Shown piece after piece: positions 2,087-35,278 of a stretch of DNA of 47,726 nucleotides. The position numbers were made by a program, and so were the translations under genes. This stretch comes from Emiliania huxleyi CCMP1516. Lineage: Eukaryota. The notes beneath the pieces are model-generated. The model was not told the origin of the DNA, did not search any database, and saw nothing but the letters and a program-made list of their open reading frames with translations. The stretch lies in NCBI RefSeq assembly GCF_000372725.1, contig NW_005201213.1:248001-295726 (forward strand), in the 5' to 3' direction. Position 1 is the stretch's first letter; every line of letters begins with the position of its first letter.

Positions 2087-8683
<6,597 letters not shown>

Positions 8684-8859: not shown

Positions 8860-9912
8860 CACTGTGGGGTGCCCGAGCATGATGTATGTGCGCTCTGTCT
8901 GTGCGTGTGTGGGACAGACGTTGTTGTCCTATGCGCGGGGCTTCCCGGGACGGCGCGGTTCACACCTCAGAAAAAAGCAGCGCCAACGGCGTGTCCGAGG
9001 AACCGAATCACAGACGACGATCGACTTTCAAGGCCGCCGCCGCCCTCCATCACGCCCGCGCAGCTCTTGTGTGCCGCCGGCCTCCGCTGCCACTGCTCCG
9101 CCACCGCCGCTGCCGCCTCCGGCCCCGCCTCTGCCGCCTCCCCATCCCAGAGCGCACAATCAAACCCACAACATGCGTTACGCGTTCGCATCCCCCGACT
9201 CACGGTGTGCGCTCCCCTCGTGTGCAGAACACCGCTCAAAATGGGTTGCACCGCCTCGAAGATGGAGCACGCAGTGACGGATGACATCAACGGCAGGGCC
9301 GACATCGAGGAGGCACGCGCGGAGATCCAGTCGCTCAAGGACGAGATCCAGGCGCTCAAGGACGAGAACCAGGCGCTCAAGGACGAGAACCAGGCGCTCA
9401 AGGCGGGGACGCCGGACGACTCCGACAAGTGTGGCACTTCGCGCTACATCAAGGCCGACGTCCCCCCTCCCTCCCCTTCCCCCCTCCCCGCCGCCAGCCC
9501 ACCCTCGCCACCACGGGTCAGGCGCTCGTGAACAAGGTGCAGGAGCTCAAGATTGAGGTCCAATCGCTCAAGGCGGGGTCGACGCCGGACGGCTCCGACA
9601 AGCTTGGCACTTCGCGTGACGTGAAGGCCGACCCAGCCGCCCCCGCCCCACCACCGCCACCGCCGCGCCCTCGTCCTCGCCGCCCTCGCCGCCTCCTCAC
9701 ACCTCCCCGCCACCGCCGCCTCCCCGTCTCCCTTCCATCCGTCCTCCATCTCCCCGCCACTTTCCTCCCCTCCGCCGCCGCGCCCGCATCCCTCTTCTCC
9801 GCCAACACATGTCCCGCCCCCCCCCCCTCCCGGACCCACCGCCACCACGGGCCAGGCGCTCGAGGACGAGGTCCAGTCGCTCAAGGCGGAGAAGCCGGAC
9901 GGCTCCGACAAG
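8860..9912. repeat. Right arm of the inverted duplication (partner 478-1756)
   Basis: Reverse-complement match to 478-1756. Confidence 0.9.
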
Positions 9913-14329: not shown

Positions 14330-14508
14330 GTGGGCTCTGAGAGCGGAGTCGGCCAGGGGGACGTACGTGCATGGGATTAGAGTCTTGAGAAACGCTTCGG
14401 CGTCGCAGATTGATTTCTTTTGCGGGAAATTCTTTTTGCGTTTTTCAGCAGGGGGTTGACCACCTCCGCCGCGCTGCCTCCGCCGCGCCAGCCGTTGCCG
14501 CCGCATCG

Positions 14509-14786
14509 GCTTATCCTCGCCCCGATGTCGGCAGCGAGCTGGCTTTCCGGCTCCTCGCTCGGCGGCACAGCGCGCAGCTATGCTACACGCCGATGATCCG
14601 GTCCGAGGAGTTTGCCGTCCCCTGCTGGAGCGCCAGCCGACGACTGCCCGCTGGTCGCCCACTTTTCGGGCAACGACCCGCAGACGCTGCTCGACGCTGC
14701 GAGGCAGGCCGAGCGCTGCCGCGGCGTGGTGGCGGTCGACCTCAACCTCGGCTGCCCTCAGCGCGCCGCGCGGAGCGGCAGGTTTG
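14509..14786 (+). pseudogene. tRNA-dihydrouridine synthase (DUS1-like) N-terminal fragment, frameshifted
   Basis: LILAPM / GSELAFRLLARRHSAQLCYTPM / PLVAHFSGNDPQTLL...VDLNLGCPQRAARSGRF, spread over different frames and truncated after the active-site Cys motif. Confidence 0.8.
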
Positions 14787-15292
14787 ACCGCCGCGCCAGC
14801 CTTGAGAAGCAGCTGGACGCACTCGAGGTGGCCCTCCTGGCACGCCATGAACAGCGGCGTAGCGCCGTCCTCATCGGCCTGATTGACCACCGCGCCCGCC
14901 TCGAGCAGCAGCCGGGCGCAGCTGAGCTCACCCTCCTGGCTTGCAATGAGCAGCGGCGTGGCGCCGTTCTGCCTGGGCTTGGCCGACCGCCGCATTGGCC
15001 TCGAGGAACAGCCGGACGCACTCGAGGTGGCCCCTCTCGCACGCGAGGAAGAGAGCGGAGGCGGCGTCCCCGTCAGCCGCCCCAACGCTCGCGCCGCCCT
15101 CGAGCAGCAGCCGCACCGCCTCGGCGCTTGCCCGTGACGAGCGGCCCAGGTGAGCAGCGTGTCTTGCTTCTCGGTCGGGTGCCGCGCGTCGAGCCTGCCG
15201 CGTGTCTGTCGCCCGGAGAGGAGGGCGAGCAGCGAGCCCAGATCGCCCCGTGCCAGGTCGGGCAGCAGGGCTGGGCCGCCGGCGCCGCTCAT
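14785..15292 (-). pseudogene. Ankyrin-repeat fragment, frameshifted and truncated
   Basis: DTLLTWAARHGQA / EAVRLLLEGGA..ALFLACERGHLECVRLFLEANA / GATPLLIASQEG..GATPLFMACQEGHLECVQLLLKAGA, with two frame changes. Confidence 0.8.
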
Positions 15293-15519: not shown

Positions 15520-18500
15520 ATAGTGTGGGGGTGTTTCTGGCGAGTCGTGATGAATAGAATTAGATTAGCAAATGGTATTTTGAAGTTCATGTATGAAAAT
15601 ACCAACTTGCCTATGTGCACGTCTCCGCGGCGGCGGCCCGGAGGGGGCCCGGCGGAGCGGTCAGAGCAGCACTGCGCCGGCCGGCGAGCGACTCTCGACT
15701 ATAGTACGGGCTCTATTGAACGGCCTCAAGGTGCTCTCTAGGGCTGCCCTATTCCGCTCGCCCGGCTACGACGCTGAGCTTCGAAGGAAAAGGTTTCGCT
15801 CGGCACGGCGTCGGAGAGCAAACTTCGGCGTTCGTCCTATAGTGGAAGCTGGACGCACGTCGGCAAGTGGGCCCATGACAAGGCGGGCTGCTGCTCAGAA
15901 TCTGGGCCCTCTTGGCGCTCGCTCTCGCGCTCTCCATAACGGCTTTGCCCCCTCTCACGGCTCCGAGAGGGGCTCGCGAGAGGCCGGAGACAGGTCCACC
16001 TTGGCGCTCGCGTCGAGCTGCGAGGCCGGATCCGAGGCCGCCAGGCCGTTGGTAGCACCAGATGGGAAGGCCCGCGCACCCGATTTTTATACGCGAAAAG
16101 TACCCGACGGACTCACGACTCACGAGGGCACACACTCGGCGGTCTCGCGACCGAGACGGCTCACGGGGAGGAAAGAACAGAAGCTAAGGATGGGGACGCG
16201 GGTAGGGGTGCCGTCTTCGAGTCTGGCGGCTCGCCCGGGACGAACGCTCGAGCCTCCGCCCCTCGGACGGGATCCGGAGAGCGCGCGTACCGCCGCGTCG
16301 GCTGGCAGCGGAGCTGGCGGGAGCGGCAGGACCGAAGGCGGCGACGCGGGATACCGGTGCGGTCGCAGCGCTGCAGAGTTGCAGCACCACGACCGCACAT
16401 CGACTGAGCGCATCGGCATGCGCGAGAGGAGGGTGTGCGGGTGCATGCCCGGGCCGTGAGGGCTGGCTGATGGGCCGCGTCGGGCGGCCGCCAGCATGCG
16501 ACTTTGAGAGAAGCGGCCGGCTTCGCAACTCAAGAACCACCTTAAGCCTAGGGGTCCCCAAGCTAGTGCCTAGTCCCCAAGAGTGGCTCAGTGTACTTGG
16601 AGCACTTGGAGTGCAGTCATCAACCTCACATCCAGGGCCGGGGAGCTGAGGAGCGCACCCAGCGGGCCGGATGATCGGTATCGGGTTACGGGCTAGAGAG
16701 CCCTAGCCCCGGGGGTGCGCGTTCGCAGGGAAAGGGCCGTAAAGTAAACACGGGTCTCCGAGGGTTAGTTCCGTGTACCGGGTTTCCCCTTAACTGCAGA
16801 ACGCCCCCTCTACTCGGAGCTAACGGACACACAACACTGTACTCCACGTACGTACACGGACACGCCTCATGTGCGCCCGCCCGACTCCGGTCCCAGAGTC
16901 CCTTCCTTCGCCTGTCGGGGCGAGCCCTCGGCTCGTCCCGGTCCCTTGCTCGCCTTCCGGGCGTTACCAGACTGCCTCTGCAGTCGTTTCTGATGCCTCT
17001 TCCTCGGCTGTGGCCTCGACTCCGCTTCGCCTTCGACTGGTACCGCAGCCTCCGAGAGCGTCGACGGCCCGGCCGGGGTCTCCCCGGGCGAGGACGGCGG
17101 CATTGGGTCGTGTCGCCTCCCCTCCCAGGGAGGACGGGCCCGCTCTCCCTGGTCGACGAGTCGCGCCCGCACCCGCGGCCTCTCTATCGTCCTCGGCTCG
17201 CCCCCCCCCTCCGCCGGCTCCTCCTCAGGCTCGGGGAGGCGTGGCCCTCCCTGTCGAAGATCACGGTGGCCCGGCTGCCACTGCGACGGGTCTCCCCCCG
17301 GTGAGCTCGTACGTCCCGACTCCACTCGCAGAGGCCGCGTCAGTTCATCTCTCCCCTCCTCCGATAACTGACCCCAAGCCCCCCCTGGGGCCCTCCGGCT
17401 TCGGCCTTCCGGCTCGCCGGCGGGCCCGTTATCGTATTGCGGCAACTCCCCTCCCCCAGCTCCTCCTCCCGGGTATTCCAGCCTCCGGCGGGGCGGTTCC
17501 GGATCCCCCAGGTCATTCCGAGCGGGTCCATACGGTGGCGGCCCCGCCGGCGGCGGGGGTGGAGGCGGTGGCAGGGGTGGCGGGTACGGTGGCGGCCCTC
17601 GCGGCCCAAACGCCTGGTGTGGAGCCGCTGGGGCGGCCCCACGACCCTGCAGCCGTTCCAGCGGCGGGGGCGGAGGTGGGAGTGTGGGTGGCGGAAACGG
17701 TGGCGGCACTGGCGGCCGCACCGCCTGGTGTGGAGCCTCAGTGGCGGCCCCTTGACTCAGCGGCCGCTCCAGCCACGGGGGCGGAGGCGGTGGTGGTGGG
17801 GGCGGGCATGGTGGCGGTGCCGGCCGCCGCAACGCCTGGAGCGGGGCCTCGGGGGCGGCCCCCTGCCTCTGCGGTCGTTCCAGCCGTGGTTCCACGCGTC
17901 GGCCGTCCACCCCGCTCTTGGGGGGGGGGGCTAGCTCTCGTCTCCCCTCGGGAAGGGGGGGGGGCAGGGCCCGGATTCGCCGACGGCTCCGCCTCTCCCT
18001 CCCCCCGCTCCGCATCAGGCCGTAGACTGCGCAGTAGTCGCGTCGCCTCCCCCCTCGCCCGGTCCCTCTCGATTCGGTCCCACACTGACCGGATATCAAA
18101 GGCCGAGTTGTGTTCGGATAGCGGGCCCGCCGATGCCACCCGCCTCTTCACACAGCACCAGGCGTACGCCTTCATCGCCTGCCCCCCCGACTGTGTCGGT
18201 CCCGGTGCGATGTCGTTGACGAGGTAGTCCTCCCCCTCCCACCGGAAAACCTGTCCAAGAAGGTCTGTCGAGCCAACCAGTCGTCTTGCCAGGCTCCGCA
18301 CTTCCCGCGTCTGTACTGGCCTGAGAACGCCGGTGCTGGCCGCGAGCGACAGACCGATCGCCCTAAGCTCCGCCAGGACCGCCTTCTCGCCCGCCGCCGC
18401 GGCCGCTCGATCCATCTCGGCCTCTCGGATTGCACCCTCCCGTTGTCTTGCCCTGTCTGCTGCCGGCACGAACCTCTCCGGGCTGCCCCGTGCTCTTTTT

Positions 18501-20006: not shown

Positions 20007-23000
20007 CTAGAGCGACTTGAGGAGCGCGGCCTTGGCCTCCGCCGAGAGGCCGTCCACGAGGTCGGCGACGGTCTTCTGGATGGCCGCGTCGCGCGTCTGC
20101 TGCACCAGCTCGTCGATCTGCGACTTTGCCGAGTCGAACCAGCCTAGCACGGCGCGGTCGTCCTCCCAGTCGCCGCCCATCATGTCGGCGAGCTTGGCGA
20201 CGGCGTCGGCGTGGGCGAGGTTCGCGTCCGCCCCCTTGAGCGCCTTGACGAGGCCGTCCTGCGCCAGCCGCCTGCGCACGCGCCACGCAAAGTACTCGCG
20301 CGCGTTGGGCCAGTCGACCACGTCGCGGACGACGCCCTTGGCCAGCATGCGGCCAGGCCGGTCGTGCAAGTCGGCAAACTCATACGAGATCTGCGCGTAG
20401 AGCGGGAGCAGCGTGTTCTCGCGCGCCTGGATGGCGGAGCGCAGCGACTGCGCCTCCGACTCCGAGCCCGGCGACTCCTCGACGATCTTCAGCTCGCTGC
20501 TGAGCGCCTGCAGCTTGGCGTCGAGCCGGTGCATCGTCTTGAGGAGGTCGGGCTTGCGGAACTTGACCTCGCAGATGCCGGGCGGCTCGAGGATGCCGCC
20601 GCGCGCGTCGGCGTCCGCGTACATCTCCATCATCTCCTCGTTGATCGTCGGGTCGATGACGACCCACGCGCCTGCGTTGAGAAGACGCCGGCATGAGGGC
20701 GTGCAGACCGTGCTCTGCAGCGTAGTTAGACGACCGAATACGGCCGAGCACGGTCGAGTGCAGTTGAATACGTGTCCTCTAGTCGAATAGTTGACAGACG
20801 AGAATCCGCGGTCCGCTTCTAGGCCCGAGATATGGGGAGAGATGGGGAGAGATTCCGCTTCTAGGCCCGCGCGCCGCCGCGCAGCTCGCCGCACGGAGGG
20901 ATGTACCTACGTGTTGAATATCGGGGCAGGAGTACGGCATTGTGCAGCGTCTTCAGAGCACCGCGTGAACACAACGGAGAAGAATACAGTGAACACAGCG
21001 GAGTACGGTCGAATACGGCGGAATGCGTGTCCTCTCGGGCGCTGGTTGGGATACATGAACACGTATTCCGCTTCTAGGAGGAATGTACGCAAAGACGGGG
21101 TGCTTGTACGTGCGGAGGTTGTCGACGATGTACGAGCCGAACTTGAGGATCTCGCCAAACATGTCGCGGGTGCCGCCCGAGAAGCCGCGCCAGTTGGCAA
21201 ACACCATGAGCGGCAGGTTCTCCGCCGAGTTGAAGTCCTGGATCGCCTGCGCCGTCTTGTAGGCCGAGTCGGGGTACCAGACCTGCCCCGCCTGCGCGAG
21301 GACCGTCTCGCGCGAGGCGGGGTTGGCGGGGTCGGCGGGGATGCGCTGCTCGACGAGGCGCGTCTCGACCGCGATGACGCCCATCGGCACGCCGCCGAGG
21401 CGCGCGCGGCCGACCACGACCGACTTGCCCCAGTCGGCGAGGTACTCGGTGAAGGAGCCCTGTGGGGAGGGTGTCAGGTGGGCAGGGGGTCAGGGGAGGG
21501 TCAGGGAAGGCTCCTGCGCCGCCGCGAGGCGCGGCCGGCCGCGCCTGGTCGAAGAAGCCGGAGAGCCAGGTGCCGTCGGCCGAGACGGTGCCGGCGAGCA
21601 TGTGGCGCGGGTCGTACGGCGTCTTGGTCGGCAGGAAGCCGATCGGCCGGTCAATCGGGTCGGCGGCGGGCGCGGCGAAGGCCGAGTCCGACGCCGTCTT
21701 TGGCACGTACGAGAGCCAGCGCAGCACCTTCTCGACGCCGTCCTGGTCGTCGATGGCGAGCTGGTGGGCGACGCCGTTTGGCAGCATGATCTGCGGGCCG
21801 CCGAGCTGGTCCTGCGACGTGTAAACCTCCTTGCCGAGCAGCTTGTTGAGCGCGCCGAAGCCGGTGAGCAGCAGCGGCCCGTTTTGCATCTGGATGACGC
21901 GCTGGGCGAGCCGGTTGATGTAGGCGCCTACTCACGGCTAGGAAGCGTCTAGGAAGTGTCTAGGAAGTGTCTGGGCGAGCCGGTTGAGGTAGGCGCCGAT
22001 GCCGACCGAGCGGCCCGTGACGTACGAGAGCGTGAACGTCTCGGCGTACGCGGCCGACGTCTCGCCGGCGATCATGCCCGAGCCGCGCAGATTCTCGACG
22101 CCGAGCCCGTCCTTCTGGCCGACGATGTCGTCCAGCTTGTACCGCTTCTCGCCGCCCTCGGTGATGTACTCGCCGTGGAAGTCGGTGCCGGGCGTGAAGC
22201 GGTTGGCGTCCTCCTCGGTGAAGTAGAGGTACTTGTACCCCTTGGCCACGTCCATCGGGTCGTTCCAGGCCACCTTGAAGTACGGCTTGAGCTCCTCGGC
22301 CAGGCCGATGCGCGCACCCGAGTTTGAGGCGATGTGCAGCCGCGGCAGCCCGCGCGCGCGCGCGTACTTGGAGACGGCGTCGAAGAAGTCGTCCTCGGCG
22401 ACGCCAAAGGAGCCGGACTGGACGGTGCAGTCGTTGGCGACGATGACGAGCGGCCGCCCCTCGGGGAACTGAGGCGTCTTGAGCGTCACGTGCCAGCCGA
22501 CCATGCCAACCTTGTTCTCGCCGACGAGCCGCGAGCCCTTGGCGAGCGCGCCCGCCTCGTCGAGCAACAGCTCCTCCGCCTCGAGCAGGTTGGTCGGCAT
22601 CGCCGGGTGGGTGCCGTCGGCGATGGCGGCCTGCCACTCCTTGACGACGCCCTTCTCGAAGAGGCCGAGGAAGTCGTACGCGTACGTGGTGCCGATCCGG
22701 CGCGCGACCGCCCTGCGAGAGCACGGGGGGGCGGAGGAGCCGGTTTTGTGGGGTGGTGTGGGGAGGTGTGGGGAAGTCTCGGGAGTCTTTGCCGGGTGTG
22801 GGGAGATGTGGGGAGATGTGGGGAGATATGCCCCGGCNNNNNNNNNNNNNNNNNNNNNNNNNNNNNNNNNNNNNNNNNNNNNNNNNNNNNNNNNNNNNNN
22901 NNNNNNNNNNNNNNNNNNNNNNNNNNNNNNNNNNNNNNNNNNNNNNNNNNNNNNNNNNNNNNNNNNNNNNNNNNNNNNNNNNNNNNNNNNNNNNNNNNNN

Positions 23001-23258
23001 NNNNNNNNNNNNNNNNNNNNNNNNNNNNNNNNNNNNNNNNNNNNNNNNNNNNNNNNNNNNNNNNNNNNNNNNNNNNNNNNNNNNNNNNNNNNNNNNNNNN
23101 NNNNNNNNNNNNNNNNNNNNNNNNNNNNCCCCCCCGGGGGGGGGGCCCCCCCGGGGGGGGGGGGGGGCCCCCCCCGCCCCCCCCCCCGGGGGGGGGGGGC
23201 CCCCCCGGGGGGGGCCGGGGGCGGGCCCCCCCCCCCCCCCCCCCCCCCCCGGGGGGGG

Positions 23259-23298
<40 letters not shown>

Positions 23299-25930
23299 CC
23301 CCCGGGCCGGGGGGGGGGGGGCGGGGCGGGGCGGGGGGGGAGCGGAGCGGAGCGGAGCGGAGCGGGAGAGACGGAGAGAGGGAGCGGAAAGAAAGAGGGA
23401 GAGAGAAGCCTTGAACTTTTGGATGAGCGGCGCGGGCGTCGTCTCGAGCGGAGGCAGCACGTGCAGGAACAGGTGCGTCGAGGCGGTCGGCATGACGCGC
23501 TTGTCGAGGAAGGCGAGCTGCAGCTCGTCGAGCGCCTACAAGAGAGAGAGCCGGCATATCGCAAAGGCGGGAAGCCGTGGACGGCGCACCAGAGCTCGTT
23601 GAGCGCCTTGAGCAGCGCGCCCTCGGCCGCCTCGGGCGTGTCCATCGCGTCGGAGTGCGTGACTCCGCGTGCGAAGACGCGCTGCTGCACGCCGCGGCCG
23701 GCGCCCTGCGAGCCGAGAAGCACCACCGAGTTGTGCGAGATCGCGGGCAGCCGCACCGGGTTCCAGTTCTGCAGCCGGTCGAGCTCGAGCGCGTTGTAAA
23801 AGGTTGGGTACATGTTGCGCCGGTTGGGGTCCTCGGCGAAGCCGTTGGCCGCGGTGAACGAGAAGAGGCGCGGCCACTTTGGCGGGTTTGGCACCATGAG
23901 CGAGACGAGCCGCACGCCCTTGGCCTTAAGCACGCCTGCGCTGCTCTCGATGGCCGCCTGCGCGGTCGCGATGAGCGCCTCCTCGGCGCCGGCGCCGGTG
24001 CCGATTGGCGCGTTGAGGGCGATGTGCAGCACGTTGAGCGGCGACGAGGCGTCGGCCGGCTCGTAGTCGGAGAGGAGGGACGGGATCGCAGTGCTGAGCG
24101 AGGCGAGCTCGGGCACGAGCGCCAGCTGGCCGTACCTGGACGGACAGAGGTGCCGGCGGCGTGTCTGAGTGTCGGTTGTGGCTCGGGCACGAGGGGCGGG
24201 GCTGGCCGTCACTGGCGCGGGCGAGGGGAGAGGGGAGGGGAGAGGGGAGGCGAGAGGGGAGGGAGAGGNNNNNNNNNNNNNNNNNNNNNNNNNNNNNNNN
24301 NNNNNNNNNNNNNNNNNNNNNNNNNNNNNNNNNNNNNNNNNNNNNNNNNNNNNNNNNNNNNNNNNNNNCGAGCGGGAGACGCGGCAGAGTCGCGCCCGAG
24401 GCGGAGAGCTCGGAGCGCAGCTCGGCGACCACCTGTGGGCCGTGTCGCGGACGTGTCGCGGACGTGTCGCGGGCGTGTCGCGGGCGTGTCGCGGGCGTGT
24501 CGCGGGCGTGTCGCGGGCGTGTCGCGGGCGTGTCGCGGGCGTGTCAGCGGGGCGTGACATATGGACATGTCGGGAGGGGCGGCGGCGCGAGCAGAGTGGA
24601 GGCGGATGGAGGTGGAGGTGGTTGGGAGGGGCGGCGAGGGAGGAGGAGTGTCGGGAGCGTCTCGGGCACCTCCTTGTTCTCTCGGCTAATCTCGGCTACT
24701 CTCGGCTACTCTCGGCTACTCTCGGCTACTCTCGGCTACTCTCGGCTACTCTCGGCACCTCGTCGAACGGCTTCTCCGCCTTGAAGAGGCCAAACTGCGC
24801 CGCGACGAGCGCCAGCTCCTTGTACTGAGCGCCGGGCAGCTGCGAGATCTCAGCGACCACGTCCATGTCGGGCGTGAGCGCCTTGAGCGGCTGCACGCCG
24901 AAGCGCTCGGGGAAGGTGTAGAGCGAGCGCAGCAGCGAGATGGCGAGGTCGACCCGCGCCGGCGTCTGCTCGTGGGCGAGCGCCTTCTCGTAGACGGCGT
25001 TTAGGTCGTCGGGCGACGTCTTGAGCATCGCGGCGATGGCTTGGTCGGTCGACATGCCGGCGAACCTGGGGAGATGTGGGGAGGTGCGGGGAGGTGTGGG
25101 GAGGTGTGGGGAGGTGTGGGGAGATGTGGGGAGATGTGGGGAGATGTGGGGAGGTGTGGGGAGATGTGGGGAGATGTGGGGAGATGTGGGGAGGTGTGGG
25201 GAGATATGCCCCGGCGAACCTGGGCGCGGGAGAGGGGGGCTTGAGGGGGAGAGGGTGGGCGTCGTGCGGTGTGCACTCTGCGGTGTGTGCACTCTCTGTG
25301 CATCGCAGTGACCGGGGCAGCATCGCAGGGNNNNNNNNNNNNNNNNNNNNNNNNNNNNNNNNNNNNNNNNNNNNNNNNNNNNNNNNNNNNNNNNNNNNNN
25401 NNNNNNNNNNNNNNNNNNNNNNNNNNNNNNGAGCTGGCCGTACCGGACGGGGCACTGCGCGTCGTCCTGCGCCTTGTCCTGCGACTGGTACCGGAACTCG
25501 ATGACGGTGCCCGCCGGCTTGGCCTCCGCGGCAGACATGTCGGCCATGTGGTAGGCGCGGTACCAGCGCTTGAGCGCGTCCTGCACGGCGGCGGTGGAGG
25601 GGGGTGGCGGGGAAGGCGGGGGGCGGCGACGGCGGCGGCGGCGGTGAGGGAGGTGGCAGGGAGGGCACGGAGGGTGGTGGCGTCGATGGTGGTGGCGGAG
25701 AGATGGCCGACCACGGCGAGGGCGGGAAGGGGGAGAGGAGCGCGACCTGCAGGAAGTGTCCAGGAAGTGTCCAGGAAGTGTCCAGGAAGTGTCTAGGAGG
25801 TGTCTAGGAGGTGCCTAGGAGGTGTCTAGGAGGTGTCTAGGAGGTGTCTAGGGAGGAGCGCGACCTGCATGGCGGCGGTGCCGACCTGCGTGTCGTCGAA
25901 CAGAGCGAGCAGCGCGTTGGTCACCACCGA
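20007..25930 (-). CDS. ACC1: Acetyl-CoA carboxylase (homomeric), central and carboxyltransferase exons
   Basis: [93 protein letters not shown] and [12 protein letters not shown]; stop at 20007-20009. Confidence 0.93.
20690..20823. mobile_element. Dispersed intronic element copy 3 (in intron 20672-20874)
   Basis: cggtcgagtgcagttgaatacgtgtcctct ... tccgcttctagg. Confidence 0.55.
20935..21078. mobile_element. Dispersed intronic element copy 4 (in intron 20907-21088)
   Basis: agcaccgcgtgaacac ... gtgtcctctcgggcgctggttgggataca ... tccgcttctagg. Confidence 0.6.
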
Positions 25931-27030
25931 GCGGGAGACAGCGGCAGAGTCGGCGCCCGAGGCGGAGAGCTCGGAGCGCAGCTCGGCGACCACCTGTGGG
26001 ACGTGTCGCGTATGTGTCGCGTATGTGTCGCGGGCGTGTCGCGGACGTGTCGCGGGCGTGTCGCGGGCGTGTCGCGGGCGTGTCGCGGACGTGTCGCGGG
26101 CGTGTCGCGGACGTGTCGCGGACGTGTCGCGGGCGTGTCGCGGGCGTGTCGCGGGCGTGTCGCGGGCGTGTCGCGGACGTGTCGCGGGCGTGTCGCGGGC
26201 GTGTCGCGGACGTGTCGCGGACGTGTCGCGGGCGTGTCGCGGACGTGTCGCGGACGTGTCGCGGGCGTGTCGCGGGCGTGTCGCGGGCGTGTCGCGGGCG
26301 TGTCAGCGGGGCGTGACATGGACATGTCGGGAGGGGCGGCGGCGCGAGCAGAGTGGAGGCGGATGGAGGTGGAGGTGGTTGGGAGGGGCGGCGAGGGAGG
26401 AGGAGTGTCGGGAGCGTCTCGGGCACCTCCTTGTTCTCTCGGCTACTCTCGGCTACTCTCGGCTACTCTCGGCTACTCTCGGCTACTCTCGGCTAATCTC
26501 GGCTACTCTCGGCTACTCTCGGCTACTCTCGGCACCTCGTCGAACGGCTTCTCCGCCTTGAAGAGGCCAAGATTACCCGAGATTAGCCGAGATTAGCCGA
26601 GATTAGCCGAGATTACCCGAGATTAGCTCCGCCTTGAAGAGGCCAAACTGCGCCGCGACGAGTGCCAGCTCCTTGTACTGAGCGCCGGGCAGCTGCGAGA
26701 TCTCAGCGACCACGTCCATGTCGGGCGTGAGCGCCTTGAGCGGCTGCACGCCGAAGCGCTCGGGGAAGGTGTAGAGCGAGCGCAGCAGCGAGATGGCGAG
26801 GTCGACCCGCGCCGGCGTCTGCTCGTGGGCGAGCGCCTTCTCGTAGACGGCGTTTAGGTCGTCGGGCGACGACTTGAGCATCGCGGCGATGGCTTGGTCG
26901 GTCGACATGCCGGCGAACCTGGGGAGATGTGGGGAGGTGTGGCGAGGTGTGGGGAGGTGTGGGGAGGTGTGGGGAGGTGTGGGGAGGTGTGGGGAGTTGT
27001 GGGGAGGTGTGGGGAGGTGTGGGGAGGTGT
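25928..27030 (-). CDS. ACC1: Second copy of ACCase central-region exons (duplicate of 24369-25200)
   Basis: [15 protein letters not shown]...[15 protein letters not shown] and its flanking introns recur, with SNPs, different repeat lengths and a 76-nt insertion. Confidence 0.85.
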
Positions 27031-27130
27031 NNNNNNNNNNNNNNNNNNNNNNNNNNNNNNNNNNNNNNNNNNNNNNNNNNNNNNNNNNNNNNNNNNNNNN
27101 NNNNNNNNNNNNNNNNNNNNNNNNNNNNNN

Positions 27131-28313
27131 CTCCGCCTCGAGCAGGTTGGTCGGCATCGCCGGGTGGGTGCCGTCGGCGATGGCGGCCTGCCACTCCTTG
27201 ACGACGCCCTTCTCGAAGAGGCCGAGGAAGTCGTACGCGTACGTGGTGCCGATCCGGCGCGCGACCGCCCTGCGAGAGCACGGGGGGGCGGAGGAGCCGG
27301 GTGGTGTGGGGTGGTGTGGGGTGGGGTACTGTGGGGGTAGGGGACCGCACCTTTGTGTCCGACTGGAAGATGATGCGGTCGATCTTGCCCGACGTCGGCT
27401 TGAAGCCCTCGTCGGGGTTCTCCGCCGTGATGCGCGCGGCGATGACGTGCTTCGGGTACTCTGACGACGGCTTGAAGTAGTCGAGGTTGAACTCGCCGAT
27501 GCCGTCGTAGTCCTCGTCGTAGAAGGCGCGCACCTTGGGGGGCGGCAGGGGGGCGCTAGATTGCCCGAGATTTGCCCGAGATTACTGCCAAGCGAGGCCA
27601 TCGAGATGGCGGCGGAGGGGGGCGGCAGACGACTGAACCATTCAAGCGGCCCGCGGTGCTAAGCGGTGTCCTGGCGCGCCTCGACAAACTCGTTGGCGCG
27701 GCGGATAAACTCGGCGTTGGCGGCGAGGTCCTCCGCCGAGGCCATCACGATGAACTCGATCGCGTTCTCGTCGCCAAACGTCTTGTAGGCCCACTTGCGG
27801 ATCGACATGATGGTCTTTGTTGCCGCCATGCCGTTGTTGGCAATCAGCACGCGGCGGATGAGCGTGTCACCGCCCCGCTCGCGAATGTACGAGTTCATTC
27901 GCTCCTCGAGGTCGGCCTGGTACGTGGCCGCAGTCGACAGCGGCTCCGCCACCGCGCGGACCGAGGAGATGCCTGCGTGTCGTGACGACGGCGTTGGTCG
28001 ACCGCCGGCCGTGCAGAGGCTCGCATGCGCGGGAGCGGGCGGCGGGCACCGCTGCGCGACGTTGCATCGGCCGGCGTGCGCAGCACCGCCGGCGAGGCTG
28101 CGGCGCCCGGCTTGGAGGCCACCGGGCTCCGGAAGGGACCCCACGAGAGTGCGCTGGCGCCGGCGAGGCCCGCCAGCAGCAGGGGCCAGTTGCCCTGCGG
28201 GGAGGGAGGGGCGCGGGGTAGGGGGAGAGGCCGGAGGGCGGCGACCGGCAGCGTTGTGCCGTCTGCGGGCGGGCGGGGGCGCGAGCTTGTGGACGGCAGG
28301 ACATTACCCTCAT
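27131..28313 (-). pseudogene. Internally deleted ACCase copy (N-terminus + one BC exon + start of CT)
   Basis: IANNGMAATK exon is followed by the [21 protein letters not shown] exon and then directly by the [10 protein letters not shown] exon, with no N gap between them. Confidence 0.6.
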
Positions 28314-28989
28314 GGAGCTCAGGCCCAGCTCGCGTGCTCGAGAAGCGGATCGGCCGAACGATTCTCCACAAAGAATTCTTAAAGCGCCAGATTCCGGGTC
28401 GCTCATATACTCAACAAAAGCCTCTCTCACATCCATCCAAAAAGACTACCAGCGTCTGCTGTACTGGTACGGATCGTCGAGACCAAAGCGTACCCGCGGG
28501 AATGGAATGACTGGATTGCGATGCTAGCGATGAAGCCGGGGGAGGACCCTTCAATTGCCCCCTTCCGAGCTGCTGCCGTCGCTGTCGTGATCCCGCTTGT
28601 GCTTCTTACGGTTGCGCTTGCGTTCGGCGCTCTTCTCCTTCTTGTCCTTGCGATGCTTCATCGATGTGTATCGCGCGCCTTGCGGTGATGACGAGCTCTC
28701 GCCAATCATGGGAATCGAGCGCTTAGCGCACGGCAGATCACGGCCGATCGAAGCTTCAAGTTTCGCGTCGAGTCCGATTTGCGGTTTTCACGCTTCACGA
28801 ACGTTGTCGTGAACACATCATGGGGCTGGGGGCTCCGTATCTCATCATATCCACGTGTATCTCCTGGTATATNNNNNNNNNNNNNNNNNNNNNNNNNNNN
28901 NNNNNNNNNNNNNNNNNNNNNNNNNNNNNNNNNNNNNNNNNNNNNNNNNNNNNNNNNNNNNNNNNNNNNNNNGAGGGGGGGGGTCCCCG

Positions 28990-30880
28990 CATCTAGGCCG
29001 GCAAGACGTGTTCTCGACCGCCATGAAGCGCTTGAGGAGCGCGGTGACCGCCGCGATGGCGTGCTCGCGCAGGCCGGGCGCGTACGTGTCGAGCACACCC
29101 TGCACCGGCGCGACCACGCCCTCCAGCTCGGCCTGCTTGCCCTCGGGCTGGCCGGCGATGAAGTCGGCGATCGCCGCGCGGAGCGCGTCGACGAGCCGCG
29201 CCGCCTCCTTGGAGTCCTCGGTGGCGACGTGCTCAGCCAGCGTCTTTGAGAGGATGGACTGCAACGCCAAGTCGAGGTCGGCGGGCAGCTTGTTGCCGAG
29301 CGCGGCCATCGCGTCCGACACCTGCCAGTATTATTTCTTTCATTGGTCTCGCAATTCCGGAGTCATTCATTCATTCATTCAATGGCCGTCGCGTCCGACG
29401 CCTCGCCGACGACGAGGTTGATCGATGAGAGCGCCGCGAGCAGCTTCTGCACCTGCGGCTCGGCCTCCATCACGTAGCCGTCCATCACGAGCTCGAGCGC
29501 CTTTTGCGACGCGCGGAAGGCCTGCAGCGTCGTCTCCTCCTTCTCCGTCGGCGTCTGGTACGCGAGCAAGCCCTCAAACGGCAGAATCTTCTTGACCTTG
29601 GACGGGTCCTTGAGCTCGAGCGAGCCGAGCAGGTCGCCCTGGTTGATGATGGAGCCCGCAGAGAGCTCGTGCTTGAGCGTGCCCGACTCGCTCGCGCGGA
29701 TGGTGATGAGCATCTTCATCGCCTCCGCCTCGGCAAACGGCTGGCCCGCCTCCACCGGCGCGCCGTCGTCGACCAGGTAGCGGACGAGCTTGCCAGTCAC
29801 GTCGGAGCGCATCTCGGACGGGTCAAACACGTTCGGCAGCAGCACGGTGGTGCCGTCGAGCACCATCCGCAGCCCGAGCGGCTCCTCCTTGGCGAACAGC
29901 TGGTGCGTCTCCGAGCCGTACGAGACGTAGAGCGAGCCGTCCGCCTGCCTGCGCGTGCGCACCTATGGGGAGATATGGGGAGATATGGGAGATATGGGGA
30001 GATTGTCCGCCTGCCTGCGCGTGCGCACCTATGCGGAGATATGGGGAGATATGGGAGATGTGGGGAGATTGTCCGCCTGCCTGCGCGTGCGCACCTGAAG
30101 CAGAGGAGTGCGGGCGGGCAGATCAAGCAACGCGACCACCGGCGTCGACATGCGGCCAATCTCCCCATATCTCCCATATCTAGGAAGTGCCTAGGAAGTG
30201 GTCTAGGAAGTGCCTAGGAAGTGTCTAGGGAGCGCCTCGATGTGCTGGCCGGTGCTCGAGAGGACGAGGTCAAAGGCGTCCGGCGCCTTTGGTGTGACGG
30301 TGAAGGAGTACTTGACGTCCTGGTAGGTGAGCTCGAGCGGCATTCCTTGCATCTCGCGCAGCGCCAGCGTCGAGAGCTGCCCCTTGTCGAGCGACTCCTT
30401 GAAGCCGGCGATGTTGTCGGCGATGAGCTTGTGGCCGCGGTAGACGGCGGCGTTGATGACGGCAGACTGCGGCTCAACCTCGACCGAGACCGACTTTGCG
30501 GCGATCAGGCCGTCGAGCCACGCGGTGTCGAGCGTGTTGTCCTTGAACTCTGGCGTGTTGAGCAGCTCGCCGAGGTACTCCACCGTCGTGCGGATGTCGC
30601 CCATGATGAAGAGCTCCTTGAGCGCGAGGACGAGCGCCTTGCGCGCCTCCTCGCGCGTCTCGCCCGTCGCAAAGACGTGGCCAAACTGCGAGTCGGCAAA
30701 CTCGTGCACGCCGCCGTCGGCGACGACGGAGAAGTAGCCCCACACCTTCAGGGGAGAGAGGGGGGGAGATGCGGGAGAGAGGCGGGGGAGAGAGGCGGGG
30801 GAGAGGGGGGGGGAGATTGGCAGGTACTGAGGCCGGAGAGGGCTGGGTTCGGGGACTGTGGGGGTAGGGGACCGCACCTT
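28990..30880 (-). CDS. ACC1: ACCase BC C-terminus, BT and biotin-carrier exons
   Basis: VWGYFSV..VHEFADSQFGHVFA, GDIRTTVEYL, DTAWLDGLIA, and the biotinylation motif AEAEAMKM near 29715-29735. Confidence 0.93.
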
Positions 30881-31297
30881 NNNNNNNNNNNNNNNNNNNN
30901 NNNNNNNNNNNNNNNNNNNNNNNNNNNNNNNNNNNNNNNNNNNNNNNNNNNNNNNNNNNNNNNNNNNNNNNNNNNNNNNNNNNNNNNNNNNNNNNNNNNN
31001 NNNNNNNNNNNNNNNNNNNNNNNNNNNNNNNNNNNNNNNNNNNNNNNNNNNNNNNNNNNNNNNNNNNNNNNNNNNNNNNNNNNNNNNNNNNNNNNNNNNN
31101 NNNNNNNNNNNNNNNNNNNNNNNNNNNNNNNNNNNNNNNNNNNNNNNNNNNNNNNNNNNNNNNNNNNNNNNNNNNNNNNNNNNNNNNNNNNNNNNNNNNN
31201 NNNNNNNNNNNNNNNNNNNNNNNNNNNNNNNNNNNNNNNNNNNNNNNNNNNNNNNNNNNNNNNNNNNNNNNNNNNNNNNNNNNNNNNNNNNNNNNNN

Positions 31298-32170
31298 CAG
31301 GTGGCTCCAGGTGGCTTCGGCCCTTCCAAGCCACCTGCCCCGCCCCCCTCGCCACACGTGGAGGGCTGGAGCACGTGCGCCACCTGGGCCTGATGGGTGG
31401 GCAGGTGGCGCCAGGTGGCTTCGGCCCCTCCAAGCCACCTGCATGCCCCCCCTCGCCACACCTGGAGGGCCGGAGCACGTGCGCCACCTGGCGCAAGTTT
31501 GAATTCGGAAACGGAAAATCCGAGCCACGGAAGGGCTGGCCTGCCAAACGCGAGCCTCCCCGCTCCTCCCCGCGCTGCAAACTGGGACTGTGGGGTGTGT
31601 GAAAGAGGGCCTGCGGCGGTCATCGGCGGCTACAATCAATGTCCGGCGTCGACATAAGCCTGGGGCTTCAACCCGGCCCGCGCGGGCGTTTGGTGTGGCT
31701 GCAAACGCCGCAGGAGCCGGTGGCTGCGCTGCTCACGCGCCGTTGCTGCCGACGCTGAGCAGTCTGACTCGCCAATGAGAAGACTGCCCGATAATACGCC
31801 ATCACTCGATCCCCGATAAACCAGGCCATGCAGAGCTTTGTCGTGTGCTGGCTGCGCACTTGGCTGCGCGGTAGAGTTGCGAGAGTGGATTGTGGAGGCG
31901 CGGCGGGGGCGGCTCGTGGTGCCGAGGCGGTGTATAGTACATTCCTATTCAAAAGAACACGCACGATGAAATTCCCGAAGTGACGCCCAGGTGGCGCACG
32001 TGCTCCAGCCCTCCAGGTGTGGCGAGGGGGGGCATGCAGGTGGCTTAGAGGGGCCGAAGCCACCTGGAGCCACCTGCCCGGGCCCAGGTGGCGCACGTGC
32101 TCCAGCCCTCCAGGCAGGTGTGGCGAGGGGGGCAGGTGGCTTGGAGGGGGGCGAAGCCACCTGGCGCCAC
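31298..32170. repeat. ~190-bp inverted repeats (31298-31494 / 31985-32170), each of two ~95-bp units rich in CAGGTGGC/GCCACCTG
   Basis: gagggctggagcacgtgcgccacctgggc on the left versus gcccaggtggcgcacgtgctccagccctc on the right. Confidence 0.8.
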
Positions 32171-32181
32171 CCGAGCGGTCA

Positions 32182-32404
32182 CATGGCCACAGGCGGCGTT
32201 TGGAATCTACTCCAGGTGCTTTTTGCACTGTTTGCCCATGGCCACAGGCGGCGTAAGCCATCTGCTCCAGGTGCTTTTTGCACTGTTTTGCCCATGTCCA
32301 CAGGCGGCGTAAGCCATCTGCTCCAGGTGCTTTTTGCACTGTTTTGTCCATGTCCACAGGCGGCGTAAGCCATCTGCTCCAGGTGCTTTTTGGACTGTTT
32401 TGCT
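32182..32404. repeat. 56-bp tandem repeat x4
   Basis: Units begin catg(g/t)ccacaggcggcgt at 32182, 32237, 32293 and 32349. Confidence 0.9.
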
Positions 32405-32745
32405 CATGGAGCAAGTGGCTAAAGCCACCTGCATTTTGTGCAAAAAGCTGCAAAGGACTCGTGGAGGCACGTGGCGCTTTCCGCGTGTGTCTCGTGCAAA
32501 ATCCGGCATTTTGTGGCTTTCAGGTGGCACGACGCGATTCAGGTGGCGTGGAGCCTCCTACCTGGGCCCATCTATGCGGCGATAGGACTTTTTGGAGCCG
32601 GTTGAGGTGTGGGTGTGTGTTTTCCAGGATTCATTTTCGGATCCGGAATCGCCCCCGCCTCCACTTTGAGCCAGTCACATCTAGTCAAAAATTGACTACC
32701 GCTTTCTACATGATACAATGACAAGCACGCACCGCCGCCTAGATC

Positions 32746-33885
32746 TTAGATCGGGCCGCGTCGTCCATCGGGCCGGAACCAGCCCGGCGGAGGCCGGACT
32801 CGGCGCAGCTCTTGCTGCCCGAATGGCGAGGCCTTCCAGCGCTCCCAGTCGCGGACGCCCGATGCCACGGGCTCCACCGGCGTGACGCCAAACCCGAAGC
32901 CGCACGGGCTCCAGCAGGCGAGCGGATCGGAGCTGTGCTCCCTGTGCAGCGCGAGCGCCGCGTAGGCCGCAGCGTACCGCAGCGCATAGTCCCCTTCGCG
33001 CACTCGGTCGCACAGGGCTCGCATCAGCTGGCGAAGCCGCGGCGACATCGGCTCGCGGCCCGAGCACCAGATCGCGAGGAGGCCGGCGGCGGCGCCGACG
33101 GCGCCAAGGTCCGCGTCGCTCTCGCCGTCTGCGAAGACCCCCTCTGCGAGCGCCAGCCCCCGTTGGGGTGGCAGGGCCTGCGCGGCCACCAGGGCGTGGA
33201 TACGCACCATCGCCGGCGCGCCGCGGCGGGCGGCCTCGAAGATCGCCGCCTCCGCGGTTTCCAGCAACGCACGGTGCTCCGGGAGCGCTGCGTCGCACGA
33301 CGCGCAGCATTGCCCCAAGGCGAGCACGGCCGCCGCACCCAGCCGGTCCGCCGTCCGGGCGCCTCCCAGGAAGTCCAGCAGCGCCGGGATGGCGCGCGGC
33401 CCCACGTGCGCCAGCGCGCGCGCCGCGAGGCGGCAGGAGGGCCCGCGCAGCTCGAGCATCGGCAGCAGCGCGCGCGGGTCGGCGTGGCGGGCGGCGTGGA
33501 AGATCCAGCGCACATCGTCGAGGGCACCCGCGCCGGGCGCGATGGCAGCGCCCGCGCCGACGAGGGTGCGGACGAGCTGCTCGAGGTCTTGGACGGGCGT
33601 CACCGAGCGAGCGGCCTCGAGCGGCCGGGCGCGCTGCGCCTCGCGCTGCCAGGGCTGCAGCTCTTCGTCGGGTGGCGGCGGCAGCTCGAGAACCAGAGCC
33701 CCCGCCTTCTGCTGTGCCCGCCGCTGCAGGACCGCGGCGCTCATCAGCGCGTTGATGACCGTCACGGCGCCGGTGGCCTTGCTGCGCCCCTTGGCCGCAA
33801 ACTTGGAGTCCACGTAGATGCCCGCAAGCTGCAGCCGCTCGCAGATCTGCCCCATGCGCGCTGGGCTGGCAAAGGGCACACTCAC
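32746..33885 (-). CDS. Hypothetical alpha-helical protein (start uncertain)
   Basis: 379-aa ORF with host-like codon use and HEAT-like amphipathic segments; no family recognised. Confidence 0.45.
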   Translation of the reverse strand: MSVPFASPARMGQICERLQLAGIYVDSKFAAKGRSKATGAVTVINALMSAAVLQRRAQQKAGALVLELPPPPDEELQPWQREAQRARPLEAARSVTPVQDLEQLVRTLVGAGAAIAPGAGALDDVRWIFHAARHADPRALLPMLELRGPSCRLAARALAHVGPRAIPALLDFLGGARTADRLGAAAVLALGQCCASCDAALPEHRALLETAEAAIFEAARRGAPAMVRIHALVAAQALPPQRGLALAEGVFADGESDADLGAVGAAAGLLAIWCSGREPMSPRLRQLMRALCDRVREGDYALRYAAAYAALALHREHSSDPLACWSPCGFGFGVTPVEPVASGVRDWERWKASPFGQQELRRVRPPPGWFRPDGRRGPI

Positions 33886-34344
33886 CAGGTGGGCTGGGAA
33901 GGACTCGGCGCCGACCCGCTTCTTTGCTCGGTCGGCGTACCCTCGGCTGGGCCGGAAGCCGAACGCTGCTCGGGGGCGGGCCTACCGGCATCGCGGCGGG
34001 CGCGGGGGGCGGCTGGACCCCGTGCAGCCACGCCCAGCTGTCCTCCCACGCGGCTTGCAGCTCGGATGGGAAAGACGAAAAGAAGGAGCTCCAGGGCAGA
34101 GGCGGTAGCGGAGCCGGCGACGTGGGGGCCACCGGCGCGCAGGTGCGGGTGCATATGAGCTTGATCATAACCCGCACGCCCGGGAAGCTTTCGGGGCATT
34201 GGGTTGCGCGGTGCCACAAATCGTAGTGGCANNNNNNNNNNNNNNNNNNNNNNNNNNNNNNNNNNNNNNNNNNNNNNNNNNNNNNNNNNNNNNNNNNNNN
34301 NNNNNNNNNNNNNNNNNNNNNNNNNNNNNNNGGGGGGGGGGGGG

Positions 34345-35278
34345 CTCCTCCGTCTTTTGCTTGAGCATCTCGCCCAGCTTTGGGTTCTCGGACGCGTGGC
34401 CCCAGCCGACGAAAATCGCGTCGACGTTTTGCGAGACGCAGAGGTCGACGATGAGCTGGACGTTGGCGTAGTTGTTTGCGTTGGAGCCCGCGGGGACCTG
34501 GCGGCGGGCGGGGGCGGCCGGCTGGGTCGCCGCCGCCGGAATCGAGGGCGGGAGGGGGGCGGCGGCGGCGGCGGCGGCGTCTGGCGGCGGCGGACGACTG
34601 AAGCTTTCAGCCGGCCCGCGGTGCTGATCGGTGTGGTGGCGCGCCTCGACAAACTCGTTGGCGCGGCGGATAAACTCGGCGTTGGCGGCGAGGTCCTCCG
34701 CCGAGGCCATCACGATGAACTCGATCGCGTTCTCGTCGCCAAACGTCTTGTAGGCCCACTTGCGGATCGACATGATGGTCTTTGTTGCCGCCATGCCGTT
34801 GTTGGCAATCAGCACGCGGCGGATGAGCGTGTCACCGCCCCGCTCGCGAATGTACGAGTTCATTCGCTCCTCGAGGTCGGCCTGGTACGTGGCCGCAGTC
34901 GACAGCGGCTCCGCCACCGCGCGGACCGAGGAGATGCCTGCGTGTCGTGACGACGGCGTTGGTCGACCGCCGGCCGTGCAGAGGCTCGCATGCGCGGGAG
35001 CGGGCGGCGGGCACCGCTGCGCGACGTTGCATCGGCCGGCGTGCGCAGCACCGCCGGCGAGGCTGCGGCGCCCGGCTTGGAGGCCACCGGGCTCCGGAAG
35101 GGACCCCACGAGAGCGCGCTGGCGCCGGCGAGGCCCGCCAGCAGCAGGGGCCAGTTGCCCTGCGGGGAGGGAGGGGCGCGGGGTAGGGGGAGAGGCCGGA
35201 GGGCGGCGACCGGCAGCGTTGTGCCGTCTGCGGGCGGGCGGGGGCGCGAGCTTGTGGACGGCAGGACATTACCCTCAT
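34345..35278 (-). CDS. ACC1: ACCase N-terminal exons with a bipartite plastid-targeting presequence and start of the biotin carboxylase domain
   Basis: Spliced reading MR|GNWPLLLAGLAGASALSWGPFRSPVASKPGAAASPAVLRTPADATSRSG|ISSVRAVAEP...RRVLIANNGMAATK...VPAGSNANNYANV...VGWGHASENPKL. Confidence 0.88.

What the first reader, a model, noticed from the sequence alone, without database searches (positions are those of the whole stretch)
26551..26646. Intron gain caught in the act: a 76-nt repeat insertion with a 20-nt target duplication, present in one ACCase copy and absent from the other
Seen: ctccgccttgaagaggccaa occurs at 26551-26570 and 26627-26646 around (gattaSccga)n. The duplicate exon at 24774-24793 has it once, uninterrupted. 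On the sense strand the duplicated AAG|GCGGAG gives both a GC donor and an AG acceptor, so removing 26557-26632 restores the frame exactly. 76 is not a multiple of 3, so retention would break the gene. The filler also carries CTAAT, a branch-point-like motif. Inference: this is a very recent de novo spliceosomal intron made by staggered-break duplication plus repeat synthesis.
Basis: partly seen in the sequence, partly recalled or inferred. Interest (0 to 1): 0.9.

Follow-up and report, generated by a model that had tools for sequence, protein, structure and literature searches.

The report
Repeat insertions that create new introns
A short run of 10-base repeats, framed by a doubled piece of the gene, sits in some versions of a marine alga's fatty-acid gene and is missing from others; it is likely removed as a new intron, and dozens of look-alike insertions elsewhere in this alga's DNA suggest a still-active, apparently undescribed way of making introns.

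Summary
The insertion is no assembly artefact: 4 of 4 DNA-type runs laid hold it, and one marine metagenome forks into filled and empty forms. Three transcript contigs carry the exact uninterrupted junction. Corrections: the two 'copies' are likely alleles of one ACCase gene in a jumbled scaffold, not paralogues; the proposed SNP tags are not linked to the insertion, so splicing of the filled allele is inferred, not shown; and it is not brand-new, being widespread with junctions that differ between runs. The larger result: it is one member of a class. In 76 metagenome loci with the same 10-mer (one gene ties them to Emiliania huxleyi), 41 of 61 arrays sit between 14-35-nt direct repeats (12 of 3654 in cross-locus controls), with microhomology at the junctions and mostly GC donors. 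The window holds a second mid-exon case and a TTAGGG array of the same build. Likely mechanism: staggered nicks, primed repeat synthesis, rejoining; a doubled AG|GC supplies both splice sites. Against: the two class members checked duplicate existing splice sites instead of splitting exons. I found no description in 10 literature searches.

The parts
26551..26570 (+). Target duplication, first copy on the + strand (20 nt here; 24 nt in runs X2 and X4). Gives the AG acceptor on the sense strand.
26571..26626 (+). Filler, 56 nt, 5.6 units of a 10-mer family that is abundant genome-wide; no terminal inverted repeat, no stable fold
26627..26646 (+). Target duplication, second copy on the + strand. 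Gives the GC donor on the sense strand.
26557..26632 (-). Predicted 76-nt GC-AG intron; the only register that restores the exon exactly
   Evidence: splicing inferred
26633..26918 (-). ACCase central-region exon upstream of the new intron (allele B)
26536..26556 (-). 21-nt exon piece left between the new intron and the next donor
   Evidence: the join to 25992 is seen in transcript contigs
25993..26535 (-). Older GT-AG intron holding two further arrays; one is framed by a 10-nt duplication of the donor (26422-26431, 26531-26540)
24759..25065 (-). Same exon, uninterrupted, in the empty allele A; empty site at 24774-24793
21902..21997 (-). Second mid-exon insertion of the same build in the same gene: 27-nt duplication (1 mismatch), 11-mer filler, 69 nt, in-frame stop; predicted GC-AG intron 21928-21996
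7501..7817 (-). Two stacked insertions (an 11-mer array and a TTAGGG array) with three copies of a 22-24-nt duplication, in a gene with a BRO1 domain upstream

Best explanation
This is a real insertion of 10-base repeats between two copies of a 20-24-base piece of an ACCase exon, present in some alleles and likely absent from others, that is likely spliced out as a new GC-AG intron and was likely made by staggered nicking followed by telomerase-like repeat synthesis from the free 3' end. Steps: (1) two nicks 14-35 nt apart on opposite strands (inferred from the duplications; shown: the duplications, 41 of 61 arrays); (2) the 3' end pairs by 1-5 bases with a short template and about 4-9 units are added on the GAGATT-reading strand (shown: microhomology and a preferred start phase; inferred: a reverse transcriptase and an RNA template, about 45%); (3) ends rejoin by microhomology, sometimes with junk bases, and gap filling doubles the target (inferred); (4) when the doubled piece holds AG|GC or AG|GT, one copy gives the donor and the other the acceptor, so the mRNA is unchanged (register shown; splicing of this allele inferred, about 80%); inserts without such a site survive mainly in introns, at old splice sites or outside genes (inferred). 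The window's two copies are likely alleles of one gene (about 85%). The organism is likely Emiliania (Gephyrocapsa) huxleyi, where most donors are GC.
For: Insertion junction contigs in X1, X2, X3, X4. X2: one contig ends at 24797 and two begin at 24768, one going into filler and one into the exon, the shape of a 31-mer graph fork between filled and empty alleles. X4: both junction contigs run unbroken into filler at depth 16-23, no empty form listed; X9 RNA has the same two SNP states as X4 and the exact uninterrupted junction at depth 63; X8 and X12 transcripts also exact. Class: 41 of 61 arrays have a direct repeat of 14 nt or more within 12 nt of both ends; controls 12 of 3654 cross-locus pairs and 3 of 61 same-locus inverted. 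In 35 clean cases the duplication is 14-35 nt (median 25), insert 54-126 nt (median 71), 19 of 35 without mismatch. Overlap of 2 nt or more with the repeat at the first junction 18 of 35, at the second 18 of 35, chance 8%. Start phase clustered also in runs long enough to escape search bias (n=16, R=0.68, p=0.00015). AGGY in the duplication on the GAGATT strand 17 of 35 against 25% in flanks, p=0.002; exact registers 21 GC, 7 GT, in line with 56-65% GC donors reported in PMC4028052. A TTAGGG array in the window has the same build and its first duplicate ends in TAG. L034 gene clusters with E. huxleyi MetRS.
Against: No run pairs DNA and RNA of one strain; X4 and X9 have different study codes. 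SNPs do not tag the insertion, so exact transcripts could come from empty alleles. The X2 empty-site contig has only 6 unique bases beyond the duplication and misses the tool's 31-letter bridging rule; allele A's C at 24810 was seen in 0 of 7 runs. Contigs show presence, not absence. Both junction phases lie next to the C/G-rich part of the unit, so microhomology with 66%-GC flanks could give the phasing without a fixed template; the end phase is only weakly clustered after bias control (n=14, p=0.02). This locus has the minority orientation (exact registers on the opposite strand in 6 of 39; AGGY there 5 of 35, no excess). Of 17 loci tested against Pfam, 3 passed a cut-off and none was shown to be a clean mid-exon gain: L034 duplicates an existing donor, L069 likely an existing acceptor, L024 was not resolved. 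No enzyme or template RNA was found or sought; no whole genome was available.
Confidence: 0.5

Rival explanations
1. Same intron and same staggered break, but the filler is copied from an existing genomic array by a DNA polymerase (polymerase-theta-type templated insertion or strand invasion); no reverse transcriptase is needed.
For: Microhomology at both junctions, not only the first. Junk bases at many junctions. An inverted array of the same family lies 17 nt away and shares 19 nt with the filler. Phasing may follow from GC-rich microhomology.
Against: The neighbour's common unit differs from the filler's (8 of one variant, 1 of the filler's). Only 9 of 35 loci have another unit in their flanks. 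Does not by itself explain the narrow 14-35-nt duplications or the telomeric case.
Confidence: 0.25
2. The inserts are the 3' repeat tails of non-LTR retrotransposons, inserted by target-primed reverse transcription and cut short before the element body.
For: Long target duplications and priming by microhomology are what target-primed insertion leaves (own knowledge); several LINE clades end in short tandem repeats (recalled).
Against: All-against-all comparison of 200-nt flanks of 61 arrays showed further arrays and overlapping loci, no shared element body (read by eye). Many unit families and TTAGGG would need many elements. Selection for short inserts biases this test.
Confidence: 0.12
3. 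The insertion is real but is not spliced: a null allele carried beside a working one.
For: Intron read-through is common in this species (89% of 535 introns, PMC4028052). Splicing of this allele was not seen directly.
Against: X1, X3 and X4 show contigs running unbroken from filler into exon with no empty form listed; ACCase is normally essential (own knowledge); the insertion is in 4 of 4 DNA-type runs.
Confidence: 0.08
4. The insertion is nearly fixed and the empty allele is a later precise loss by recombination between the two repeats (in the cell or during cloning), so the polymorphism shows loss of a young intron.
For: Filled form in 4 of 4 DNA-type runs, empty form in 1 of 4 plus the window; empty forms sit on two SNP backgrounds. 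Repeat-mediated intron loss is proposed in PMC3296678.
Against: An old empty allele that recombines explains the same data; the origin would still be a gain by duplication. No close outgroup genome was available.
Confidence: 0.07
5. Assembly artefact.
For: The scaffold is jumbled here, with gene pieces out of order across 100-N gaps.
Against: Independent runs hold the junctions; the same build recurs in unrelated assemblies.
Confidence: 0.02

Closest known systems
Intron gain by double-strand-break repair (Daphnia pulex polymorphic introns; seen as passages in PMC3488318 and PMC3296678)
   Same: Presence/absence within a species, short direct repeats at the junctions, possible parallel gains at one site.
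   Different: There the new introns have no obvious source; here the filler is a tandem array from a few genome-wide families, the duplication is long (14-35 nt) and the build is stereotyped across dozens of loci.
Introner elements (PMC9860276, PMC11282704; passages)
   Same: Many similar introns across a genome; splice sites taken from the target duplication (both from the site in Florenciella).
   Different: Introner duplications are 3-9 bp and the element is a copied unit, often with terminal inverted repeats; here no inverted repeats, variable copy number and ends, duplication 3-5 times longer.
Interstitial telomeric insertions made by telomerase at breaks (PMC2246262; passages)
   Same: Tandem repeats added at a break, bases in register with the repeat at the 3' end, sometimes a target duplication.
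   Different: Those are TTAGGG only, duplications occur in 4.6% (rodent) to 16% (primate) of loci, and no intron gain is described in the passages seen; here units are mostly 10-11 nt and duplication is the rule.
Intron gain by tandem genomic duplication of an AG|GY site (named in PMC3296678; details from own knowledge)
   Same: Donor and acceptor both come from the doubled exon piece; mRNA unchanged.
   Different: Here the doubled piece is too short to be an intron and the repeat filler supplies the length and branch-point-like motifs.

Membership tests
Spliceosomal GC-AG intron | GC/GT donor and AG acceptor in a register that restores the reading frame | tested here: met
   One of 21 registers, 26557-26632
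Spliceosomal GC-AG intron | Branch point near the acceptor | tested here: inconclusive
   CTAAT with A at -27, but it is part of every repeat unit
Spliceosomal GC-AG intron | Removed from the mRNA of the allele that carries it | tested here: inconclusive
   Exact junction in X8, X9, X12; no DNA/RNA pair of one strain; SNPs not linked
Introner (transposon-derived intron) | Family of similar intron sequences at many loci | tested here: met
   76 loci with the same unit; 162-468 contigs per run laid on the stretch, nearly all on the filler
Introner (transposon-derived intron) | Target duplication of 3-9 bp where present | tested here: not met
   14-35 nt, median 25, in 35 cases
Introner (transposon-derived intron) | Terminal inverted repeats or fixed element ends (not universal in the family) | tested here: not met
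   Inverted match 0 nt in 30 and 1 nt in 5 of 35; lengths 54-126 nt; no fold
Break-repair intron gain (Daphnia type) | Direct repeats at the junctions and presence/absence within the species | tested here: met
   the empty form in reads rests on one fork
Break-repair intron gain (Daphnia type) | Filler without an obvious genomic source | tested here: not met
   Filler is an abundant repeat family
Telomerase-made interstitial insertion | Inserted unit is the telomere repeat | tested here: not met
   10-mer at this locus; TTAGGG only at 7589-7795
Telomerase-made interstitial insertion | Bases in register with the repeat at the primed 3' end | tested here: met
   24 of 35 with 1 or more, 18 of 35 with 2 or more; chance 28% and 8%
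Telomerase-made interstitial insertion | Template RNA and enzyme | not testable with these tools
   No genome held
Non-LTR retrotransposon insertion | Shared element body beyond the repeat tail in longer inserts | tested here: not met
   None among flanks of 61 arrays; biased to short inserts
Non-LTR retrotransposon insertion | Endonuclease target motif at the nick | not tested
   Only the last and first three bases of duplications were tallied
Tandem-duplication intron gain | Intron consists only of duplicated gene sequence | tested here: not met
   56 of 76 nt are foreign filler

The most novel reading that the evidence does not exclude
Emiliania huxleyi runs a telomerase-like intron factory: a reverse transcriptase with several short RNA templates (10-11-mers as well as TTAGGG) writes repeat arrays into staggered nicks across the genome, the doubled target supplies both splice sites, and this ongoing process built many of its repeat-filled introns and explains why most of its donors are GC. 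It would be an intron-gain route that needs no mobile element.
Probability: 0.3. Interest if true: 0.9.

Novelty: new variant of a known kind. Interest (0 to 1): 0.72.

Why it matters
How new introns arise is a long-standing question; transposon-derived introners and scattered break-repair cases are the documented routes. Here a stereotyped build recurs at dozens of loci of a culturable, heavily sequenced alga, and at least one case segregates with its empty site, so birth, spread and loss can be measured directly. It offers a testable reason for the species' majority of GC donors (doubled AG|GC sites in 65%-GC exons) and explains why its gene models and assemblies fail at these repeats. If the enzyme is telomerase-like with several templates, that is a new activity in genome evolution.

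Tried and rejected
Whole-genome search: none held. Related loci of the exon in metagenome contigs: 589 pattern hits, none confirmed. Repeat in viral contigs: 0. Earlier findings: nothing. Paralogue reading: rejected as less likely, since homologues map as one gene whose pieces are partly doubled and out of order and introns are near-identical. Linked-SNP test: rejected. Hairpin or inverted-repeat element: fold z = -0.12, no inverted ends. Template switch from the neighbouring array: not excluded here, not general. Pfam test for mid-exon position: 82 pieces from 17 loci, hits above cut-off at 3 loci, two weak hits below cut-off, none showing a clean exon split. First phase test was open to bias from the 35-nt search pattern; redone on 21 runs of 45 nt or more. 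Zero depth over 26534-26559 in X1, X3 and X8 is not read as absence. One Pfam piece (21999-22571) gave no family; its place in ACCase rests.

Full report
Observation. The 20-mer lies at 24774, 26551 and 26627 and nowhere else in the window. Aligning 24375-25210 with 25935-27030 shows the second stretch to be the first plus 76 nt at this site, with array-length differences in the introns. The gene is on the minus strand and encodes the central region of an ACCase. Of 21 equivalent 76-nt deletions only 26557-26632 reads GC...AG; retention stops translation at 26605-26603. Transcript contigs join 26536 to 25992, so the insert leaves a 21-nt exon piece.

Alleles, not paralogues. Homologues map onto 20010-34920 as one gene whose pieces are out of order and partly doubled (N-terminus at 27955 and 34920, this exon at 26917 and 25064, a short piece at 27292 and 22735), separated by N gaps, several of exactly 100. 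The two exon versions differ at 2 of 310 bases. Each of the 7 runs laid shows one contig over the exon body. I read this as two haplotypes of a diploid stitched in tandem (inference).

Reads. One search listed 15 runs; I laid 7, all held as contigs. On allele B: X1 has a contig from the filler (26589) into the exon with one other letter; X3 likewise from 26585 with a 7-letter gap; X2 has the first junction with a 5-letter gap; X8 has a 6-kb spliced contig with the exact uninterrupted junction and both B-type SNPs. On allele A: in X2 one contig ends at 24797 and two start at 24768, one turning into filler and one continuing as exon, as a 31-mer graph would fork between filled and empty alleles. 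This empty contig has only 6 unique bases past the duplication, short of the tool's 31-letter rule, so I count it as good but not full support. X4 shows both junctions unbroken and no empty form; X9 and X12 RNA show the exact junction. X1 and X3 are of unrecorded kind; I take them as DNA from their size and longest contigs (85 and 231 kb) and X8 as RNA from its spliced contig. X1 may be the window's own source and is then no independent support. SNP states: T at 24810/26663 in 7 of 7 runs; at 25019/26872 T in X1, X3, X4, X9 and A in X2, X8, X12. The X2 empty contig has both B-type letters, so the SNPs cannot assign transcripts. In X2 and X4 the duplication is 24 nt, not 20, and X4's second junction carries several non-repeat bases. 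So the insertion is in 4 of 4 DNA-type runs and its junctions differ: either one older event since eroded, or parallel insertions at one site. Splicing is inferred from strains that show only the filled form of a normally essential enzyme (own knowledge) and from X9 sharing X4's SNP states.

Direction. An exact doubling of coding sequence marks a gain. 13 of 14 homologues print an uninterrupted peptide across the site (P0014 gave no match to the motif used); P0005, a 336-aa ORF on a 21.8-kb contig with a non-homologous tail, is likely read from genomic DNA and so lacks an intron here. These are distant (58-75% identity), so a later precise loss in allele A is not excluded.

The class. In the window many 10/11-mer arrays sit between direct repeats. 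A scan of metagenome contigs for 3.5 units of the filler gave 76 loci; 61 distinct arrays had 50 nt on both sides. 43 of 61 had a direct repeat of 12 nt or more and 29 of 20 or more; 41 of 61 had 14 or more within 12 nt of both ends, against 12 of 3654 cross-locus pairs and 3 of 61 inverted controls. Arrays of other units in the same loci and the window: 18 of 50. One locus encodes a MetRS exon 97% identical to a cluster that holds Emiliania huxleyi proteins; that the other loci and the window are of this species is inferred from the shared repeat and GC content (median 66%; 8 low-GC loci mostly lack the duplication). For junction statistics 39 arrays passed a score of 14 and I dropped 4 whose diagonal was the array itself or nested, leaving 35. 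Duplications 14-35 nt, inserts 54-126 nt, no inverted ends. Overlap of 2 or more bases with the repeat consensus: 18 of 35 at each junction, chance 8%. Start phase is clustered, also among 21 runs long enough to avoid bias from the search pattern (16 clean junctions, p=0.00015); end phase weakly (14, p=0.02). Because both phases flank the C/G-rich part of the unit, GC-rich microhomology alone could give this. AGGY inside the duplication: 17 of 35 on the GAGATT-reading strand (null 25%, p=0.002), 5 of 35 on the other (null 18%); exact registers 21 GC and 7 GT. No shared body beyond the arrays was seen.

Do they split exons? In the window a second ACCase case does: 21902-21997, 69 nt with a stop, and the homologue aligns across it with the downstream copy as exon. 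But several window arrays duplicate old splice sites (25057/25211, 25733/25851, 26422/26531, 29939/30005, read from sequence), as does L034 (donor, shown with a transcript-derived protein) and likely L069 (acceptor). Of 17 loci tested against Pfam none was shown to be a clean mid-exon gain. The AGGY excess may thus partly reflect insertion or survival at existing junctions. A TTAGGG array at 7589-7795 has the same build, with the first duplicate ending in TAG, in a BRO1-domain gene; its exact sense-strand registers begin GA or GG, not GC/GT.

Mechanism. Staggered nicks, primed addition of repeat units, microhomology-aided rejoining, gap filling; a doubled AG|GY gives both splice sites. Duplication, filler, microhomology and register are shown; nicking, the enzyme and splicing of this allele are inferred. 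I favour a telomerase-like RT because of the homogeneous units, the start phase and the telomeric case; DNA-templated copying and truncated LINE tails remain open.

Literature. Seen as passages only: PMC4028052 (GC donors 56-65%, GA rare, read-through in 89% of 535 introns), PMC2784329 (no repeat-intron account; one gene with alleles differing in intron length), PMC10290126, PMC2246262, PMC11282704, PMC3488318, PMC9860276 (0 hits for Emiliania or tandem in the main text), PMC3296678, PMC11782384 (repeats of 4-30 bp near splice sites generally; 0 hits for Emiliania), PMC3152781 (one reference line). The 2013 genome paper is not held; I recall that it notes 10-11-bp repeats in introns, which is unverified. 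Ten searches showed no description of arrays framed by target duplications in this alga, judged from listings. No supplements were opened; those of the genome paper and of PMC9860276 may bear on novelty.

Verdict. Real; likely a young, segregating GC-AG intron, older and less unique than first proposed, and a good handle on a genome-wide insertion process. New variant of a known kind; interest 0.72.

Noticed in passing
window 7501-7817: TTAGGG array (7589-7795) and an 11-mer array stacked between three copies of a 22-24-nt exon piece of a BRO1-domain gene; exact registers start GA or GG, so it is either a rare-donor intron or a broken allele.
   Followed up: partly
window 21902-21997: Second mid-exon insertion in ACCase, 27-nt duplication, 69 nt; the intronic copy has drifted by one base.
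   Followed up: partly
window 29939-30096, 45705-45868, 47211-47420: Triple copies of duplication plus array: repeated insertion or tandem amplification of the whole unit.
   Followed up: no
window 25057-25223, 25733-25869, 26422-26540; L034:600-660; L069:581-650: Insertions that duplicate an existing donor or acceptor; possible targeting to splice junctions or survival bias.
   Followed up: partly
window 4190-4273, 20812-20871, 47211-47250: Unrelated loci share the short motif CTTCTAGG next to arrays; may be a remnant unit or a preferred site.
   Followed up: no
window 27131-27540 and 30855-30880: ACCase residues near 1081-1134 and 72-135 of a homologue are joined within one contig at an intronic repeat that also ends the contig at 30880: likely a misassembly.
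   Followed up: partly
window 478-1440 and 8956-9912: About 960-nt inverted duplicate at 94% identity, perhaps another allele pair.
   Followed up: no
window 23129-23360: Runs of C and G next to a gap; looks like low-quality sequence.
   Followed up: no
window 31298-32409: Longer tandem repeats (56, 97, 104 nt) with imperfect palindromes between ACCase pieces; possibly a mobile element.
   Followed up: no
window 13647-15044, 17550-17884: 84-, 99- and 111-nt coding-type repeats (leucine-rich and ankyrin-like by period; recalled, not scanned).
   Followed up: no
L009: The 10-mer array runs straight into TTAGGG-like repeats and is flanked by another array family.
   Followed up: no
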